Positions 50,579-55,286 of a stretch of DNA of 64,000 nucleotides are shown here, in pieces. The translations under genes were made by a program, and so were the position numbers. The notes under the pieces were generated by a model that did no database searches, was not told the origin of the DNA, and saw only the letters and a list, made by a program, of their open reading frames with translations. How positions within the stretch are numbered: the stretch's first letter is position 1; each line of letters begins with the position of its first letter. Source of the DNA: a virus; the IMG/VR virus record IMGVR_UViG_3300017755_003154, positions 20,064 to 84,063 of that record; one strand, 5' to 3'.

Positions 50579-51589
50579 GTGTTCAAGAAAGCGGCGGTCT
50601 TTACTGATATTCATCTTGGCCTAAAAGGCAATAGTAAAGTACATAACGATGATTGTGAACGTTTCGTAGATTGGTATATTGCACAAGCAAAAGCCAATGG
50701 ATGCGAAACAGGAATATTTTGTGGCGACTGGCATCATAATAGAAACAGTCTTAACCTTACAACCATGGATGCAACAATACGTTGTATGGAAAAATTAGGT
50801 AGTTCATTTGAAAAGTTTTACTTTTTTGATGGTAACCACGATTTATATTACAAAGACAAACGTGATGTAAACTCGACTGCGTTTGCTACATACATTCCAG
50901 GTATTACATTTATTGATGAAATACACATTGAAGAAGATGTTGCTCTTGTTCCATGGCTTGTTGGTGATGAATGGCGTAAAATTAAAGATATAAAAACCAA
51001 ATATATGTTTGGTCATTTTGAATTGCCATCATTCTATATGAATGCAATGGTACAAATGCCCGACCACGGTGAACTAAAAGCAGAACACTTTGAACATCAA
51101 GAATATGTGTTCAGTGGTCACTTCCATAAAAGACAAAAACAAGGCAAAGTACATTACTTAGGTAATGCATTTCCTCACAACTATGCAGATGCATGGGATG
51201 ATGCAAGAGGAATGATGATACTTGATAGAGAAAATAACAAAGAGCCTGAATATCTAAACTGGGATGACTGTCCTAAGTATAGAACAACTACACTTAGTAA
51301 ACTTCTTGATCCTAATCAAGACATTATTAAAAGTAATATGTATTTGCGTGTTACTATTGATGTTCCGATTAGTTATGAAGAAGCACAATTTATAAAAGAA
51401 ACATATATTACACAATATAAGTGTAGAGAAATTACACTGATCCCGCAAAAGCAAGTCGAGGAAATAAGTACCGACTTAGATATTTCAACCTTTGAAAGTG
51501 TCGATGAAATTGTATCAAAAGAAATTACAGCAATTGATTCAGATAACTTCAATAAAAAAATGCTATTGGACATCTATAACGAACTATGA
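50579..51589 (+). CDS. gp47: Recombination endonuclease subunit gp47 (Mre11/SbcD-like)
   Basis: Metallophosphoesterase motifs TDIHLG, GDWHH, GNHD, GHFE, SGHFH. Confidence 0.9.
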   Translation: MFKKAAVFTDIHLGLKGNSKVHNDDCERFVDWYIAQAKANGCETGIFCGDWHHNRNSLNLTTMDATIRCMEKLGSSFEKFYFFDGNHDLYYKDKRDVNSTAFATYIPGITFIDEIHIEEDVALVPWLVGDEWRKIKDIKTKYMFGHFELPSFYMNAMVQMPDHGELKAEHFEHQEYVFSGHFHKRQKQGKVHYLGNAFPHNYADAWDDARGMMILDRENNKEPEYLNWDDCPKYRTTTLSKLLDPNQDIIKSNMYLRVTIDVPISYEEAQFIKETYITQYKCREITLIPQKQVEEISTDLDISTFESVDEIVSKEITAIDSDNFNKKMLLDIYNEL

Positions 51590-53358
51590 TACGTATTAAG
51601 GACCTAACCGTAAAAAACTTTATGAGTGTGGGTAACCAGACTCAGGCTGTTGACTTTAACAAAGAACAATTAACCCTTGTGCTAGGTGAAAACTTAGATC
51701 AAGGCGGCGATGATAACGGATCGCGTAACGGAACAGGTAAGACCACCATCATCAACGCATTAAGTTATGCGTTGTATGGGGTGGCACTAACAAACATTAA
51801 ACGTAACAACCTTATTAATAAAACTAATAGCAAAGGAATGTTAGTTTCACTTGAATTTGAGAAAGATGGCATAGATTATAGGATTGAAAGAGGACGCTCT
51901 CCAAATATTCTTAAATTTTATATTAATAATCAAGAACAAGAAATGTTAGACGAGTCGCAAGGCGATAGTCGTAAAACACAAGCAGACATTAATGACTTGT
52001 TAGGTATGAGTCATGATATGTTCAAGCATGTTGTTGCACTAAACACATATACAGAACCGTTTTTAAGTATGCGACAAAACGATCAACGTGCTATTATTGA
52101 GCAGTTGTTAGGTATTACTATCCTAAGTGAAAAGGCAGACAAACTAAAAGAAGGTGTAAGACAAACTAAAGAAACTATTACACAAGAAACTTTAAAAATT
52201 GAAGCAATACAAACTTCAAATAGTAAAATAGAAGATACTATTACAAACCTGCAAGGTACGCAACGTGCTTGGCTTGCTAAAAAGCAACAAGACGTAGATA
52301 AGTTAACTAGTGCAATCGACGAATTAGAACACTTAGACGTTAATGCTGAACTAGATGCACATGAAAAATTACAAAACTGGAATGAACACAACAATGCTAT
52401 TTTGGCTCTTAAAAAAGAATTAAGCACACTAGAGCCTGCATTAGTACGTGCTGAGAGTTCTGTAGAAAAAGCAACTAAAGACATTTCAAATCTTGAAGAT
52501 GCAACATGTTATACTTGTGGACAAGAACTACATGCAGACAAAAAAGTAGAATTACAAGCACGTAAAGAAAAAGAATTAGACGAAGCAATTGACTATCGAT
52601 CAGAAATTTCTAAAAAAGTCGATGACGTTACAAAAGGTCTTCAAGAAATTGGTGATATAAATGGCAAGCCAACTACGTACTATGAAACAGCAAAAGAAGC
52701 ATATGAACATAGACAAAACGTTGATAGTTTAAAGACTGCCCTTGAAAATAAAAAGAACGAAGTTGATCCATATCAAACACAAATTGATGAATTGAATAGC
52801 ACAGCAATGCAAGAAGTTGATTGGACTGCAATTAATGAATTAACAAGTTTCAAAGACCATCAAGAGTTTTTATTAAAACTGTTAACAAATAAAGATTCAT
52901 TTATTCGTAAGAAGATTATTGATCAAAACTTAGCATACTTAAACAACAGACTTACATATTACTTGGATAAACTAGGATTGCCGCATCAAGTTGTGTTTAT
53001 GAATGACTTGAATGTAGAAATTACACAGTTAGGTCAAGACTTAGACTTTGATAACTTGTCAAGAGGTGAGCGTAATAGACTTATACTTGGTATGAGTTTT
53101 GCATTTAGAGATGTTTGGGAAAGTTTATATCAGAATATCAATCTATTGTTTATTGACGAGTTGATTGATAGTGGTATGGACACCGCAGGTGTTGAAGGTT
53201 CGCTGGCTGTACTTAAGAAGATGGGTAGAGAACGTCATAAAAATGTATTCCTTATTTCGCACAAAGATGAATTAATTGGAAGAGTTAATCATTTAATGAA
53301 AGTTGTTAAAGAAAATGGATTTACTTCTTATGAAAATGACATAGAGATAGTGGATTAA
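51586..53358 (+). CDS. gp46: Recombination ATPase subunit gp46 (Rad50/SbcC-like)
   Basis: KNFMSVGN; Walker A NGTGKT; CYTC zinc hook in a coiled coil; LSRGE signature; FIDELID; ISH. Confidence 0.92.
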   Translation: MIRIKDLTVKNFMSVGNQTQAVDFNKEQLTLVLGENLDQGGDDNGSRNGTGKTTIINALSYALYGVALTNIKRNNLINKTNSKGMLVSLEFEKDGIDYRIERGRSPNILKFYINNQEQEMLDESQGDSRKTQADINDLLGMSHDMFKHVVALNTYTEPFLSMRQNDQRAIIEQLLGITILSEKADKLKEGVRQTKETITQETLKIEAIQTSNSKIEDTITNLQGTQRAWLAKKQQDVDKLTSAIDELEHLDVNAELDAHEKLQNWNEHNNAILALKKELSTLEPALVRAESSVEKATKDISNLEDATCYTCGQELHADKKVELQARKEKELDEAIDYRSEISKKVDDVTKGLQEIGDINGKPTTYYETAKEAYEHRQNVDSLKTALENKKNEVDPYQTQIDELNSTAMQEVDWTAINELTSFKDHQEFLLKLLTNKDSFIRKKIIDQNLAYLNNRLTYYLDKLGLPHQVVFMNDLNVEITQLGQDLDFDNLSRGERNRLILGMSFAFRDVWESLYQNINLLFIDELIDSGMDTAGVEGSLAVLKKMGRERHKNVFLISHKDELIGRVNHLMKVVKENGFTSYENDIEIVD

Positions 53359-53555
53359 TGACTGACGACACACACGATCTATTAACAAAAGCATATATGG
53401 AGTATTTCAAAGCAAATGAAACATTTGAAGACCGTGTTTCTTACAGGACCCACAGAGCAAGTCGAAAATGGCTTAGAGAAATACGTAAATTAAGTAAAAT
53501 ACGTATGGATGAGATCAACGACAAGTTCAAAACCAAGATCGAGGCAGACAAATAG
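53358..53555 (+). CDS. Small basic helical hypothetical protein
   Basis: 65 aa, translationally coupled to gp46 (TAATG); RASRKWLREIRKLSKIR. Confidence 0.65.
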   Translation: MTDDTHDLLTKAYMEYFKANETFEDRVSYRTHRASRKWLREIRKLSKIRMDEINDKFKTKIEADK

Positions 53556-53576
53556 ACGGTATAGGTATATAAGTTC

Positions 53577-54026
53577 ATGCAGTGGACTTATGGCGGAAAA
53601 AAGATAGACGAAATACCAGACGAATACGAAGGATTTGTTTATCTTATTACTAATACCACTACAGGTCAAAAATACATAGGCAAAAAACTAGCAAAATTTA
53701 AAACTACTAAGCCACCATTAAAAGGCAAAAAAAATAAAAGGCGTGGAACTAAAGAAAGCGATTGGAAAGACTACTGGGGATCCAGTGATAGACTAAACGC
53801 AGATGTTGCACAACTAGGCGCAGACAAATTTACAAGAGAAATACTATACCTATGTAAAGGTAGGGGCGAAATGTCCTACATAGAGGCAAGAGAACAGTTT
53901 GATAGGCGTGTACTTGAAACTGATGAATACTATAATGGTATCATTAATGTTAGAGTAGGCGGATCAGACAAACTCAAAAAGGCATTGCTAGAACAAAATA
54001 TCCAGGCAAAACAATCTAACACCTAA
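53577..54026 (+). CDS. GIY-YIG family endonuclease (Seg/DenA-like, catalytic domain only)
   Basis: GFVYLITN..KYIGKK; Y.GSS; FTREIL..E..YYN. Confidence 0.8.
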   Translation: MQWTYGGKKIDEIPDEYEGFVYLITNTTTGQKYIGKKLAKFKTTKPPLKGKKNKRRGTKESDWKDYWGSSDRLNADVAQLGADKFTREILYLCKGRGEMSYIEAREQFDRRVLETDEYYNGIINVRVGGSDKLKKALLEQNIQAKQSNT

Positions 54027-54027
54027 G

Positions 54028-54490
54028 GTTAGCGGGCCAGTTTATAATACCGCTGAGTAAAAGGCATCCGTAAAGGAGCACTCGTACACGTTGAGCCGCG
54101 TCCGGTAGTAGGGCGGCAGGATTAGCGTAGATTGACTGTTAGCAATCGAAGAACACAACACAGTTCATAAAAACTCTTTAGCAATAGGAACGAAGCGAGA
54201 GGTAGCGTAAGCGATGTCGACGTAGGTTGGGAAAGGTCAGAGCCCATTGAACTAAGTGTATAAACAAATAACCTACTTCCAAGTCTCGGCTGTGGCGAAC
54301 TCACATGAAGTCAAGATTAGATGGAACCAGCGATTAGGTTCCGTCTGACTGAAACAATCTACATGAAGCAATTACAATATTACTTCGTAATATTGCTTTA
54401 ATTCATATTCATTTACTTCTATCATACAAAAAACGAAGTGTTTAGTTTGAGCGTTAAGCGAAAACTTATATCTACGGAGTAGATATACTA
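54028..54490 (+). ncRNA. Candidate large structured non-coding RNA (family not recognised; strand inferred)
   Basis: No credible ORF; about 47% GC over 54031-54350 by hand count; many nested helices, e.g. GTAGATTG/CAATCTAC, GTAGGTT/AACCTAC, AGATGGAACC/GGTTCCGTCT, CAATATTAC/GTAATATTG; GNRA-type loops on the plus strand. Confidence 0.6.
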
Positions 54491-54494
54491 AATA
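54488..54494 (+). promoter_or_regulatory. Late promoter-like CTAAATA
   Basis: Directly after the TATATCTAC-GGA-GTAGATATA hairpin and upstream of 54522. Confidence 0.55.
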
Positions 54495-54521
54495 CAAGTA
54501 ACTACTTTAAGGACAATTAAG

Positions 54522-55286
54522 ATGAATATTCACGAAATAATTTTAGAAGATAGTCGTATTGATGAGAAACCCACAAGTTCAATAGGCAATTTCGCTAAAA
54601 AAATGGCTAGTAAAGTTACAACTGGTGGTGTAAGTGCTAGATTAGGCGGAAGTGCTGAAATGGGTTCTAAAGCAAACGAAATTTATAAAGATCTTGCTAG
54701 ATGGCAAGGTATCAACGGTAAAAACGATAAAAACATGACTGCACAGGATTTAGCGGCATTCATGAAGCAACACAAGTTAAACGCAGGCGGAATAGATTTA
54801 CCTGATGGTGTATTAGGTAAAAAAACAATCGATGCAGTACTAAAGAAAGCAAGTGCAAATGCACTTACAGGCGGAAACGCGGCGGCTTCAACTAAAGCCC
54901 CAGCAGGAGCACCTGCTAGTGGCGGTGGTGTTGGAGGAGCGTTAGGTGCTATGGCTAAAGGTGCAGGCGTAAAAACTCCAAATGTTAAACCAAGCACTGG
55001 TAGCGGTGCAGGTGGTGCAGGCGGTAGTGGAGGCGGAGCAGGTGGCGCAGGTGGTGCAGGAGCACCAGGACCGGCAGGAGCCCCAGGTGCGGCAGGAGCA
55101 GACGGAAAAGATGGAAAAGATGGAGCAAGTGCAAGTCCTAGCACAAGCAAACCAGCAGGTACACCAACTGCAAAAGATCCTAAAGTAACACCGTTAAAAA
55201 ATAAAGGTGGTATTTCACCAGAAATACAAACAATGATTGACAAATTGACGCCAACTGAGAAAAAAGCATTGGCAGGAGCAATATAA
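54522..55286 (+). CDS. Gly/Ala-rich protein with a short collagen-like segment; putative internal head protein
   Basis: MNIHEIILE N-terminus; GAPGPAGAPGAAGADGKDGKDG. Confidence 0.65.
   Translation: MNIHEIILEDSRIDEKPTSSIGNFAKKMASKVTTGGVSARLGGSAEMGSKANEIYKDLARWQGINGKNDKNMTAQDLAAFMKQHKLNAGGIDLPDGVLGKKTIDAVLKKASANALTGGNAAASTKAPAGAPASGGGVGGALGAMAKGAGVKTPNVKPSTGSGAGGAGGSGGGAGGAGGAGAPGPAGAPGAAGADGKDGKDGASASPSTSKPAGTPTAKDPKVTPLKNKGGISPEIQTMIDKLTPTEKKALAGAI

What the first reader, a model, noticed from the sequence alone, without database searches (positions are those of the whole stretch)
53577..54490. Minimal GIY-YIG nuclease followed immediately by a ~450-nt highly structured non-coding region: a candidate nuclease-ncRNA system or new large RNA class
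Seen: this is the only long intergenic gap in a gene-dense window. It begins at the nuclease stop codon and is about 47% GC over 54031-54350 (hand count), clearly above the AT-rich background. A long-range 8-bp helix GTAGATTG (54127-34)/CAATCTAC (54355-62) encloses GTCGA/TCGGC (54216-20/54286-90), GTAGGTT/AACCTAC (54222-28/54270-76), GGG/CCC, TGTG/CACA and ATGGAACC/GGTTCCGT (54321-28/54337-44). The loop sequence GGTCAG (54235-40) is complementary to CTGACT (54345-50), a possible pseudoknot. Flanking hairpins are AGCGG/CCGCT, GCCGC/GCGGC, CAATATTAC/GTAATATTG and TATATCTAC/GTAGATATA. G-U pairs and GCAA/GTAA loops favour a plus-strand RNA. The 149-aa nuclease has a basic insertion (KPPLKGKKNKRR) but no C-terminal NUMOD/HTH DNA-binding modules of typical Seg/I-TevI homing enzymes. 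Established: HEARO/omega-RNAs partner with compact nucleases, and phages carry large ncRNAs of unknown function. Inference: the RNA may scaffold or guide the nuclease, be a ribozyme, or prime replication beside gp46/47. I cannot assign it to a known family.
Basis: partly seen in the sequence, partly recalled or inferred. Interest (0 to 1): 0.86.

Follow-up and report, generated by a model that had tools for sequence, protein, structure and literature searches.

The report
Twin-box phage RNA beside nuclease slot
The gene-free stretch behind a small DNA-cutting enzyme gene of this uncultured marine giant phage encodes a real, knotted RNA of about 440 bases that carries one short word twice, always changed in step, but nothing shows that it guides the enzyme and its job is unknown.

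Summary
Window 54027-54521 is the only long ORF-free gap, at 47% GC against a 34% background. It encodes a plus-strand structured RNA of about 440 nt.

More than 240 IMG/VR contigs carry homologues. A 62-pair model, with two crossing helices, is 93.4% paired; 34 pairs change on both sides, and 0 of 500 shuffles reach this.

Two 8-nt boxes, at 54303-10 and 54361-68, vary in parallel between phages. Their first 7 letters are identical in 66 of 78 distinct RNAs.

Rfam gives no hit for the window. In one subfamily, however, the 5' third is the catalogued Polynucleobacter-1 motif (RF01718).

The RNA follows the GIY-YIG gene wherever upstream DNA is present (130 of 146 loci; the other 16 are cut). 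In a second sample it does so in 99 of 105 loci, and five others carry an unrelated PDDEXK_15 nuclease in that place. Homologous GIY-YIG genes in cultured phages have no such RNA.

My reading is a self-standing RNA gene at the end of the gp47-gp46 recombination module, read by an unknown partner, not a nuclease guide. This scan found the same family earlier on other DNA.

The parts
53577..54026 (+). Small stand-alone GIY-YIG nuclease gene (149 aa). It holds the catalytic domain only and occupies the 'nuclease slot' directly before the RNA.
   Evidence: Pfam PF19835 at E 2.3e-35. phrog_447 at E 2.5e-39. tblastn finds homologues in 784 phage records. No PDB sequence match.
54027..54465 (+). The structured non-coding RNA as a whole. 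The 5' end abuts the stop codon of the upstream ORF. The 3' end is approximate.
   Evidence: DNA is conserved at 68-99.8% across loci. Covariation supports the fold. G-U pairs favour the plus strand. Contigs from RNA libraries of 4 studies lie on 53.6-54.3 kb and bridge the stop codon. In L189 the same 5' start follows the stop codon of an inserted ORF.
54027..54158 (+). Variable 5' domain. Hairpins: AGCGG 54031-35 / CCGCT 54050-54, GCCGC 54095-99 / GCGGC 54113-17, and GATTG 54130-34 / CAATC 54143-47.
   Evidence: Coordinates. The GATTG/CAATC hairpin has 4 of 5 pairs with both-sided changes. Two domain types are visible in A1 and A2. The equivalent domain of relative L234 is Rfam RF01718 at 100.6 bits. 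The window itself gives no RF01718 hit.
54159..54258 (+). Long-range helix HA: CACAGTTCA 54159-67 pairs with TGAACT..GTG 54248-58. It encloses Pa, Pb and the 5' strands of Pc and PK1.
   Evidence: 7 of 9 pairs change on both sides and 96.1% are paired. Found without prior assumption.
54168..54173 (+). Nearly invariant A-rich joiner, TAAAAA(C).
   Evidence: Invariant A columns in A2.
54174..54201 (+). Hairpin Pa: CTCT 54174-77 / AGAG 54198-201 plus GC 54181-82 / GC 54195-96. Its 12-nt loop AATAGGAACGAA (54183-94) is nearly invariant.
   Evidence: 3 of 4 outer pairs change on both sides and 99.5% are paired. The loop GGAAC is complementary to GTTCC at 54338-42. In L081 the two are GAAGC and GCTTC, a single compensatory case.
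54203..54214 (+). Hairpin Pb (TAGC GTAA GCGA). This is the site of insertions of 0 to about 100 nt in relatives.
   Evidence: Alignment A2. The closing pair is CG in 43, UA in 36 and AU in 11 sequences.
54222..54276 (+). Helix Pc: GTAGGT 54222-27 / ACCTAC 54271-76. It crosses HA, so the two form a pseudoknot. It encloses Pd: TGGG 54228-31 / CCCA 54243-46.
   Evidence: Pc is 98.8% paired, with UA changed to GC in 7 sequences and GC changed to GU or AU in 14. L081, L075 and L088 read GCAGGT with ACCTGC or ACCTGT.
54235..54350 (+). Candidate pseudoknot PK1: GGTCAGA 54235-41, in the Pd loop, pairs with TCTGACT 54344-50.
   Evidence: 100% paired across 94 sequences. There are only two one-sided, wobble-compatible changes. 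It is plausible but not proven.
54282..54318 (+). Helix Ph: AGTCTC 54282-87 / AAGATT 54313-18. It encloses box 1.
   Evidence: 4 of 6 pairs change on both sides. Only 77.8% are paired on the MAFFT alignment, which is poor in this stretch. Compensatory variants can be read.
54300..54310 (+). Twin box, copy 1: CTC + ACATGAAG (word at 54303-10).
   Evidence: The word varies between phages in step with copy 2.
54322..54343 (+). Hairpin Pg: TGGAACC / GGTTCCG, with a variable loop.
   Evidence: 100% paired, with 1 both-sided and 3 one-sided changes. Other subfamilies have a GC-rich hairpin with a GCAA-type loop at the same place.
54358..54368 (+). Twin box, copy 2: TCT + ACATGAAG (word at 54361-68), 58 nt after copy 1.
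   Evidence: The first 7 letters match copy 1 in 66 of 78 distinct RNAs. 543 of 624 cells are identical, against a shuffle mean of 414.9 (sd 9.0); 0 of 2000 shuffles reach the observed value.
54375..54395 (+). AT-rich 3' hairpin with a CTTCG loop, followed by GCTTTAATT. It may be a terminator or a stabiliser.
   Evidence: 7 of 7 or 8 of 8 pairs change on both sides. The consensus terminator scan did not call it, because it lacks G-C pairs.
54445..54465 (+). Tail hairpin: GTTT [GAGCGTTAAGCGA] AAAC, with a conserved loop.
   Evidence: Conserved in all 15 sequences of A1. The stem covaries: TTGAC/GTCAA in L124 and L131.
54467..54494 (+). Hairpin TATATCTAC / GTAGATATA running into CTAAATA (54488-94), about 27 nt before the ATG of the next gene. 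It is probably a late-promoter region and not part of the RNA.
   Evidence: Stem pairs covary. CTAAATA is conserved. That it is a late promoter rests on recalled knowledge of the T4 late-promoter consensus.

Best explanation
The gap encodes a self-standing, plus-strand, multiply pseudoknotted non-coding RNA of about 440 nt, a family that earlier notes of this scan call 'twin-box RNA'. It is carried by uncultured marine and aquatic giant T4-like phages related to PA5oct, Phosso and Atu_ph07.

Shown here:
- The RNA begins directly after the stop codon of the preceding small nuclease gene.
- Contigs from RNA libraries run across that junction.
- Its core is a long-range helix crossed by a second helix, carrying several hairpins.
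- The same 8-nt word is displayed twice: once inside a helix-closed loop and once in a joiner 58 nt downstream.

Inferred:
- It is made as the tail of the gp47-gp46-orf65-nuclease transcription unit.
- The two boxes are read by one lineage-specific outside partner, most simply a nucleic acid by base pairing, since the boxes stay identical to each other while differing between phages.
- The nuclease is not that partner. The small GIY-YIG protein more likely fills the phage's structure-specific nuclease ('resolvase') slot beside Mre11/Rad50, where PDDEXK_15 sits in relatives.

What the RNA does after binding its partner is not known. Its genomic company points to replication or recombination.
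For: Reality of the RNA:
- A 62-pair model is 93.4% paired, 34 pairs change on both sides, and the covariation score is 0.217 against at most 0.049 when partners are slid; 0 of 500 shuffles reach it.
- GNRA and UUCG loops, and G-U pairs that would be C-A on the other strand.
- Indels of 1-2 nt in the core, and stop codons in all frames.

Twin boxes: (66 of 78 RNAs; 0 of 2000 shuffles). The boxes also change in step within the close window-type group, in L199, L209, L175 and L180.

Not a nuclease partner:
- GIY-YIG homologues without the RNA. Neither model matches the whole genomes tested: R1 on 5 and R2 on 5.
- PDDEXK_15 replaces GIY-YIG before the same RNA in 5 loci.
- L279 (PDDEXK_15) shares the window's word.
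- ORFs are inserted between nuclease gene and RNA in L353 and L189.

Slot idea:
- PDDEXK_15 is single-copy and lies beside gp46 in PA5oct and Phosso. It is absent from 5 large GIY-type contigs and from Melnitz.
- PF19835 is absent from 3 PDDEXK-type contigs.
- Melnitz and ACG-2014f have no Endonuclease_7 domain.

Transcription: RNA-library contigs from 4 studies cover the region, and 3 of them bridge the stop codon.
Against: - No partner was found. No sequence complementary to the boxes lies within about 1 kb in 17 loci or anywhere in the 64-kb window.
- The shuffle controls ignore relatedness between sequences.
- PK1 rests on invariance only. The loop-to-GTTCC pairing rests on a single sequence.
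- Logan contigs cannot show strand, ends or a single transcript, and DNA carry-over in RNA libraries is possible.
- Linkage to a nuclease gene is very tight: 130 of 146, 99 of 105, and 59 of 62 loci long enough to judge. It survives where the nuclease-RNA pair lies in another gene neighbourhood (L215; gp46 reversed beside L237). That pattern would also fit a functional pair.
- The contigs used for the 'mutually exclusive' argument are 3-66% complete.
Confidence: 0.5

Rival explanations
1. Nuclease-RNA system. The RNA binds the small nuclease, which has no DNA-binding domain, and aims it, with the twin boxes acting as a short guide or as the protein's docking sites.
For: - A small nuclease gene is always directly upstream where the DNA reaches that far.
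- The pair stays together in a different gene neighbourhood (L215; gp46 lies reversed beside the pair in L237).
- Both nuclease types are catalytic domains of about 150-170 aa.
- cDNA contigs bridge the gene and the RNA.
Against: - Close homologues work in phages with no such RNA: Melnitz is 71% identical.
- Two unrelated folds would have to use the same RNA, and L279 and the window share one box word.
- The boxes are only 7-8 nt long.
- No target was found in the window.
- ORFs inserted between nuclease gene and RNA are tolerated (L353; L189).
Confidence: 0.12
2. Selfish neighbour. The RNA gene is a very conserved phage gene, and free-standing homing endonuclease genes (GIY-YIG, and sometimes PDDEXK) have settled next to it because they cut its sequence in genomes that lack them, as Seg and Mob genes do in T4.
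For: - The best Pfam match is the SegE family.
- Different nuclease families occupy the same site.
- The RNA core has invariant blocks of 7-14 nt, and about 30 nt if single variable columns are allowed, which would make good homing targets.
Against: - The nuclease is nearly universal and intact rather than sporadic: 130 of 146 loci, the other 16 being cut.
- It lacks the C-terminal DNA-binding modules of Seg enzymes.
- No RNA-bearing locus without a nuclease gene was seen; such a locus would be the expected target allele.
- PDDEXK_15 also sits beside gp46 in PA5oct, Phosso and probably EJP2, where no such RNA was detected.
Confidence: 0.15
3. Replication or recombination element acting on DNA. 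The region is an origin or an R-loop primer site. The twin boxes are iteron-like repeats for a lineage-specific DNA-binding protein, such as the small basic orf65 product.
For: - It lies at the end of the gp47-gp46 module, and a small basic protein gene (orf65) is nearly always nearby.
- Direct repeats that stay identical within a replicon but differ between replicons are typical of iterons (recalled knowledge).
- Cultured relatives have a gene-poor stretch of about 1 kb at the corresponding place.
Against: - Compensatory changes that pass through G-U, together with GNRA and UUCG loops, point to a folded RNA.
- There are only two boxes, at fixed places within the fold.
- tblastn detects no orf65 in L258 and L269, which nevertheless have the RNA.
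Confidence: 0.12
4. Cis-acting untranslated region: a 3' UTR that stabilises or controls the nuclease mRNA, or a leader for the late genes downstream.
For: - The RNA starts at the stop codon.
- It ends in hairpins before a late-promoter-like CTAAATA.
Against: - A pseudoknotted core of about 300 nt with long invariant single strands is far more than such roles need.
- The upstream gene can be replaced or separated from the RNA.
- The downstream gene varies: p254 is undetectable in most loci.
- The box words do not match the start regions of the downstream genes.
Confidence: 0.06

Closest known systems
Polynucleobacter-1 RNA motif (Rfam RF01718; Weinberg et al. 2010, PMC2864571. I saw only the Table 1 row; Additional file 1 is closed.)
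   Same: In relative L234/L242 the first 137 nt after the GIY-YIG stop codon match the whole 141-position model at 100.6 bits, against a gathering score of 37. That RNA also carries the twin-box module found by model R2. The window's RNA starts with the same kind of hairpin (GGTTAGCGG...CCGCT) at the same place.
   Different: The window itself, and the window-type locus L164, give no RF01718 hit, even at E<=10 for the window. The catalogued motif covers at most the 5' third. The pseudoknotted core and the twin boxes are not part of it. Its listed range is Burkholderiales and fresh water/estuary, with function unknown.
GOLLD (RF01998), ROOL (RF03087) and OLE: large 'ornate' bacterial and phage RNAs (PMC12286853, abstract seen)
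   Same: Each is a large, intricately folded non-coding RNA that is often phage-borne, was found by comparative genomics, and has no known function.
   Different: There is no Rfam match. This RNA is smaller (about 440 nt), is tied to a nuclease slot beside Mre11/Rad50 genes rather than to tRNA clusters, and carries two co-varying identical boxes.
Group I introns carrying GIY-YIG homing endonuclease genes (for example T4 td with I-TevI; recalled)
   Same: A GIY-YIG gene next to a structured RNA in a T4-like phage. A long-range helix crossed by a second helix, with an A-rich joiner after the first strand, recalls the P3/P7 topology.
   Different: There is no Rfam Intron_gpI hit. There is no split host gene: orf65 ends in its own stop codon and the next gene has its own start. 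The upstream and downstream genes vary. The 5' strand of the second pseudoknot sits inside a hairpin loop.
HEARO / omega-RNA with IscB or TnpB (Rfam RF02033; recalled)
   Same: A compact nuclease gene next to a large structured RNA.
   Different: The nuclease families differ (GIY-YIG or PDDEXK, not RuvC/HNH). There is no Rfam hit and no long variable guide segment. Homologous nucleases exist without the RNA.
T4 Seg-type free-standing GIY-YIG endonucleases (Pfam PF19835)
   Same: The catalytic domain matches the SegE family model end to end.
   Different: The protein is only 149 aa, with no C-terminal DNA-binding region. It is nearly universal in this lineage. It belongs to phrog_447, a family of proteins of about 148 aa found in 784 phage records.

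Membership tests
Rfam RF01718 Polynucleobacter-1 | Covariance-model score at or above the gathering score of 37 bits. | tested here: not met
   The window gives no hit at E<=10, either over 53000-55000 or over 54027-54420 alone. Window-type locus L164 gives none at E<=1. Positive control: relative L234/L242 scores 100.6 bits.
Rfam RF01718 Polynucleobacter-1 | Same position and 5' start as in a confirmed member: directly after the nuclease stop codon, with a first hairpin of the GGYTAGCG...type. | tested here: inconclusive
   The window starts GGTTAGCGGGCC...CCGCT at 54027. L234 starts GGCTAGCGCAGGCC at 12 nt after its stop codon. The resemblance was judged by eye only.
Twin-box RNA family (this scan's working name; not in print in the searches) | Module of box 1, hairpin, T-N-TG-R-C-T, then box 2, detected by model R2. 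| tested here: met
   The window scores 61.5 bits at 54295-54372. The window was in the training set of R2, so it matches by construction. Loci not used in training (for example L256, L251, L292, L269, L279) score 52-76 bits.
Twin-box RNA family | The two boxes are identical within one RNA but differ between RNAs. | tested here: met
   66 of 78 distinct RNAs have identical first 7 letters. There are 22 and 27 distinct 8-mers for copy 1 and copy 2.
Group I intron | Match to Rfam Intron_gpI. | tested here: not met
   No hit at E<=10.
Group I intron | Interrupts a gene whose exons flank it. | tested here: not met
   orf65, the nuclease gene and p254 are complete ORFs. The neighbours vary.
Group I intron | Guanosine-binding P7 and self-splicing. 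| not testable with these tools
   This needs biochemistry.
HEARO / omega-RNA guide systems | Adjacent IscB or TnpB gene, and a variable guide at one end of the RNA. | tested here: not met
   The neighbouring gene is GIY-YIG or PDDEXK_15. There is no Rfam hit. The only lineage-specific words are the two 8-nt boxes.
Seg-type homing endonuclease | GIY-YIG catalytic domain. | tested here: met
   PF19835 at E 2.3e-35, residues 3-123.
Seg-type homing endonuclease | C-terminal DNA-binding region, and sporadic presence among close relatives. | tested here: not met
   The protein is 149 aa with no further domain. It is present in 130 of 146 loci, the other 16 being cut off.
Intrinsic terminator (3' hairpin 54375-95) | G+C-rich stem followed by a T run. 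| tested here: not met
   The consensus scan finds 0 terminators in 53200-54700. The stem is A-T rich, but it covaries.

The most novel reading that the evidence does not exclude
The RNA is the sequence-reading part of a phage recombination or replication machine. Its two identical boxes base-pair with a lineage-specific nucleic-acid partner, for example two sites on replicating phage DNA or on another RNA. The RNA thereby places the interchangeable small nuclease of the neighbouring slot (GIY-YIG or PDDEXK_15) at that partner. This would be an RNA-programmed structure-specific nuclease unrelated to Cas, IscB or TnpB systems.
Probability: 0.08. Interest if true: 0.95.

Novelty: new variant of a known kind. 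Interest (0 to 1): 0.72.

Why it matters
Large, intricately folded RNAs of unknown function are rare, and each has opened new biology. This one is widespread in uncultured aquatic giant phages. It has a covariation-backed pseudoknotted core. It also offers an unusual, experimentally usable handle: two identical short words that mutate together, which implies a single sequence-specific reader waiting to be found.

The result also shows that a motif catalogued in 2010 (Polynucleobacter-1) is only the first third of a much larger RNA in some members.

Finally, it suggests that a phage protein family widely mis-annotated as 'NAD synthetase' (phrog_447, a small GIY-YIG protein) fills the same genomic slot as PDDEXK junction-resolvase-like nucleases.

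Tried and rejected
Known RNA family: Rfam scans of the window at E<=10 gave only chance-level snoRNA, U2, U7 and S-element hits. ARAGORN found nothing.

Decayed gene or coding region: no ORF above 60 aa in the gap. Homologues differ by 1-2-nt indels.

Internal partner for the boxes: no full or 6-nt complement (G-U allowed) lies at a consistent place within about -450 to +620 nt in 17 loci. No other copy or complement exists in the window with up to 1 mismatch. There is no relation to the start region of the next gene. The apparent match of the CTTCG hairpin loop to the box does not covary (read).

Helix flanking box 1: it is not better than partner-shuffled controls overall.

PK1 across subfamilies: I could not align it reliably by eye and left it as unproven.

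Cultured relatives:
- R1 found nothing in Melnitz, PA5oct, Phosso, S-SRM01 or phiN3.
- R2 found nothing in Melnitz, PA5oct, Phosso, S-SRM01 or ACG-2014f.
- R2 gave only a chance-level hit in EJP2 (E 0.6).
- nhmmer with the A2 profile found nothing in six loci.
- RF01718 found nothing in PA5oct, Phosso or Melnitz.
So the claim in earlier notes that look-alikes sit in lab-grown E. coli and Pseudomonas giant phages was not reproduced with my models.

PA5oct's four published ncRNAs lie elsewhere in that genome (PMC7318152, passages read).

Parts of the stretch without cover in the RNA-library contigs (54318-54418 in all four runs) prove nothing.

My automatic twin-repeat finders were noisy or circular, and I did not use them as evidence.

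Prior print: the searches found no description of this RNA. Two sources may hold pieces or details: PMC10690425 (passages read), which lists 8,495 IMG/VR candidates of 29-151 nt in supplements I could not open, and Additional file 1 of PMC2864571, which is closed.
Full report
**What is there.** The window is part of an 84-kb IMG/VR virus record. Around the finding, all genes lie on the plus strand:
- gp47-like (50579-51589);
- gp46-like Rad50 (51586-53358);
- a 65-aa basic ORF, 'orf65' (53358-53555);
- the 149-aa GIY-YIG gene (53577-54026);
- a 495-nt ORF-free gap (54027-54521);
- a 254-aa and a 693-aa protein of unknown family.

gp46 is closest, at 43-49% identity, to the giant phages PA5oct, Phosso and Atu_ph07.

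GC is 47.2% over 54031-54350 against 34.5% for the window. This is the only internal gap above 300 nt, and every quoted word sits where stated. The single-sequence folding signal is weak: z is -2.27 on the plus strand and -1.75 on the minus strand. Rfam and ARAGORN find nothing.

**Conservation.** Loci fetched through the downstream protein showed the same gene order and 68-99.8% DNA identity across the gap. In L011, for example, the gap is 91% identical while p254 is 59% identical.

Together with the earlier loci, 146 loci carry it. A GIY-YIG gene lies directly upstream in 130 of them. In the other 16 the locus begins at most 285 nt before the pattern, so the gene cannot be seen. The same pattern hit three contigs in MAGs. 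These show the phage gene order and look mis-binned.

**Structure.** An unbiased scan of 98 distinct sequences, followed by a count on 94 aligned sequences (A2), supports these elements, in window coordinates:
- hairpin GATTG/CAATC, 54130-34/54143-47;
- long-range helix HA, 54159-67/54248-58 (7 of 9 pairs change on both sides);
- an A-rich joiner;
- hairpin Pa, 54174-77/54198-201 plus 54181-82/54195-96, with a nearly invariant 12-nt loop;
- variable hairpin Pb, which takes insertions of 0 to about 100 nt;
- Pc, 54222-27/54271-76, which crosses HA and so makes a pseudoknot;
- Pd, 54228-31/54243-46;
- Ph, 54282-87/54313-18;
- Pg, 54322-28/54337-43;
- the 3' hairpin, 54375-82/54388-95 (all pairs change on both sides).

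Taken together, the 62 pairs are 93.4% paired. 34 pairs and 373 cells change on both sides. The covariation score is 0.217, against 0.108 in shuffles (0 of 500 reach it) and at most 0.049 when partners are slid by 1-3 columns.

Pairs that are mostly G-U (for example 92 of 94 at one PK1 pair and 72 of 94 in Pg) would be C-A on the other strand. GNRA and UUCG loops are common. Both point to a plus-strand RNA.

PK1 (GGTCAGA 54235-41 with TCTGACT 54344-50) is always pairable, but it shows only one-sided changes. The Pa loop GGAAC could pair with GTTCC at 54338-42. In the most divergent window-type sequence (L081) the two read GAAGC and GCTTC. That is one compensatory case only.

GTCGA/TCGGC stays open.

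**A larger family.** Eighty loci fetched through a GIY-YIG alignment were searched with a model of the window-type core, R1 (153 positions). It matched 43 of them. Seven of these were weak hits, all at the same distance behind the gene. With filters off, more weak hits appeared at that same place.

Reading these gaps showed several divergent subfamilies with the same layout.

A second model, R2, covers only the box-hairpin-box module. It matched 59 of the 80 loci, always on the gene's strand, with the module starting about 215-610 nt behind the stop codon. Of the 21 loci without a match:
- 18 end before the module could appear, 546 nt or less behind the stop codon;
- L225 looks like a divergent member by eye;
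- L230 and L238 have other DNA behind the gene.

So 59 of the 62 loci that reach far enough have the module.

**Twin boxes.** The window has CTC-ACATGAAG at 54300-10 and TCT-ACATGAAG at 54358-68.

I extracted box positions from a model-based alignment of 84 hits, which are 78 distinct RNAs. The first 7 letters of the 8-nt word are identical between the two copies in 66 of 78. Most of the other 12 are divergent members that the model misaligned.

The variable positions agree between the copies in 73, 71, 72 and 68 of 78 RNAs. There are 22 distinct words for copy 1 and 27 for copy 2. 543 of 624 cells are identical, against 414.9 (sd 9.0) after shuffling copy 2 among the RNAs; 0 of 2000 shuffles reach the observed value. 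Because the sequences are related, that count is not a probability.

The change also recurs inside the close window-type group, as GAAG to GATG, ACAT to ACGT, and ATGAAG to ATAATG.

I found no complementary partner:
- none within about 1 kb;
- none in the window;
- no link to the next gene's start region.

**Relation to the nuclease.** The GIY-YIG protein belongs to phrog_447. That family has 784 phage records by tblastn, many of them annotated 'NAD synthetase'.

In Melnitz (71% identical), S-SRM01, phiN3 and ACG-2014f the homologue is followed by at most about 150 nt of spacer. R1 matches none of Melnitz, PA5oct, Phosso, S-SRM01 and phiN3. R2 matches none of Melnitz, PA5oct, Phosso, S-SRM01 and ACG-2014f. 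As a positive control, R1 scores 164.8 bits on the window's own record. The basic insertion is shared by these RNA-less homologues.

A second, nuclease-blind sample came from a pattern taken from the hairpin of other subfamilies. It again hit at least 120 contigs. Of the 105 loci with at least 900 nt upstream:
- 99 have the GIY-YIG gene within 1200 nt;
- L353 has it 1357 nt away, with a 320-aa ORF in between;
- five (L258, L269, L279, L297, L357) have instead a protein of about 169 aa.

That protein matches Pfam PDDEXK_15 and phrog_244 'RusA-like Holliday junction resolvase'; two of the five were scanned.

PDDEXK_15 is single-copy and lies next to gp46 in PA5oct and Phosso. It is found in the two PDDEXK-type contigs tested. 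It is absent from Melnitz and from five GIY-type contigs of 169-236 kb that are 47-66% complete. PF19835 is absent from three PDDEXK-type contigs, which are only 3-18% complete. Melnitz and ACG-2014f have no Endonuclease_7 domain.

I infer that the two nucleases are alternative fillings of one slot beside Mre11/Rad50, plausibly the phage's branch-cutting enzyme. L279 (PDDEXK_15) shares the window's box word, so the word is not read by the nuclease.

Two observations point the other way. The RNA was never seen without a small nuclease gene upstream. In L215 the GIY-RNA pair follows a different, structural-looking gene, and in L237 gp46 lies reversed downstream of the pair. So a functional pair cannot be excluded.

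**Expression.** Twenty public runs hold part of a 3-kb stretch around the RNA, ten of them on record as RNA. I laid Logan contigs of four metatranscriptomes from four studies. All four cover 53.7-54.2 kb. Contigs X12-6 (53928-54204), X3-18 (53772-54108) and X13-11 (53970-54119) run from the nuclease ORF into the RNA.

Contigs cannot show strand, ends or expression level, and conserved sequence attracts relatives' contigs. This is therefore only a hint of co-transcription.

In L189 the same RNA start (GGTTAGCGGGCC) follows the stop codon of an ORF inserted behind the nuclease gene.

**Known relatives.** After my own analysis I consulted the scan's earlier notes. The same family had already been reported many times on other genomes as 'twin-box RNA'. 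Those notes named Polynucleobacter-1 (RF01718) as the closest catalogued motif.

I tested that lead. L234/L242 match the full RF01718 model at 100.6 bits, directly behind the GIY-YIG stop codon. The window and the window-type locus L164 do not match. So the catalogued motif is the 5' domain of some subfamilies only.

The 2010 paper lists it in one table row, with unknown function, and no other paper in the library names it.

The earlier notes' claim of look-alikes in cultured E. coli and Pseudomonas giant phages was not reproduced with my models. Those phages do have a gene-poor stretch of about 1 kb beside the PDDEXK endonuclease gene next to gp46.

**Verdict.** This is a real, large, pseudoknotted phage RNA. 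It is new to the catalogues apart from a partial overlap in some members. It has a striking pair of co-varying boxes and a very tight, but not nuclease-family-specific, link to a small nuclease gene.

The guide-RNA idea is not supported, and the function remains open. My best reading is a self-standing RNA of the recombination/replication module that presents its word twice to one outside partner.

Noticed in passing
window 53358-53555: A 65-aa basic ORF ('orf65', ...RASRKWLREIRKLSKIRMDEI...) lies between gp46 and the nuclease gene in nearly all related loci (39-98% identity). It has no Pfam or PHROG match. It may be a small nucleic-acid-binding protein.
   Followed up: partly
window 54467-54494: A covarying hairpin, TATATCTAC/GTAGATATA, runs into a conserved CTAAATA about 27 nt before the ATG of the next gene. 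It resembles a T4-type late promoter with an upstream TACGNAG word, as another first-reader note on this window describes for minus-strand sites.
   Followed up: no
L155 6518-8030 (PA5oct), L156 6911-7924 (Phosso), L363 6651-7810 (EJP2): In three cultured giant phages, a gene-poor stretch of 1-1.5 kb lies beside the PDDEXK-type endonuclease gene next to gp46. EJP2 there has GAGTGAAACGAAGTGAACGA, which resembles the tail element of some marine members. My RNA models did not match.
   Followed up: partly
phage records (for example NC_028945.1, NC_047714.1): The small GIY-YIG family (phrog_447) is annotated 'NAD synthetase' in many GenBank phage records and in PHROGs. This looks like a propagated mis-annotation.
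   Followed up: no
L157-L159 (MAG contigs JBDNIA010000124.1, PBPT01000016.1, PBPT01000082.1): Contigs filed under a Crocinitomicaceae MAG and a Neomarinimicrobiota MAG carry the phage order gp47-gp46-orf65-GIY-RNA. The latter contigs are 335 kb and 153 kb, and their modules look the same (both GIY genes 74.5% identical to the window's; near-identical RNA stretches). They look like giant-phage DNA binned with bacteria.
   Followed up: partly
window 54900-55200: The middle of the 254-aa protein is a Gly/Ala/Pro-rich low-complexity stretch with GC up to 0.62. This explains why tblastn matches only its ends in relatives.
   Followed up: no
L238 1501-3428; L001 (Melnitz): In Melnitz-like contigs the GIY-YIG gene has no RNA behind it. 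In L238 it faces a reversed orf65-like gene and gp46. In Melnitz it follows nrdB.
   Followed up: partly
run X3, loose end at window 54252: One RNA-library contig ends in what looks like Illumina adapter sequence, directly after a variant of the stretch following helix HA. It comes from a short insert and is not evidence for an RNA end.
   Followed up: no
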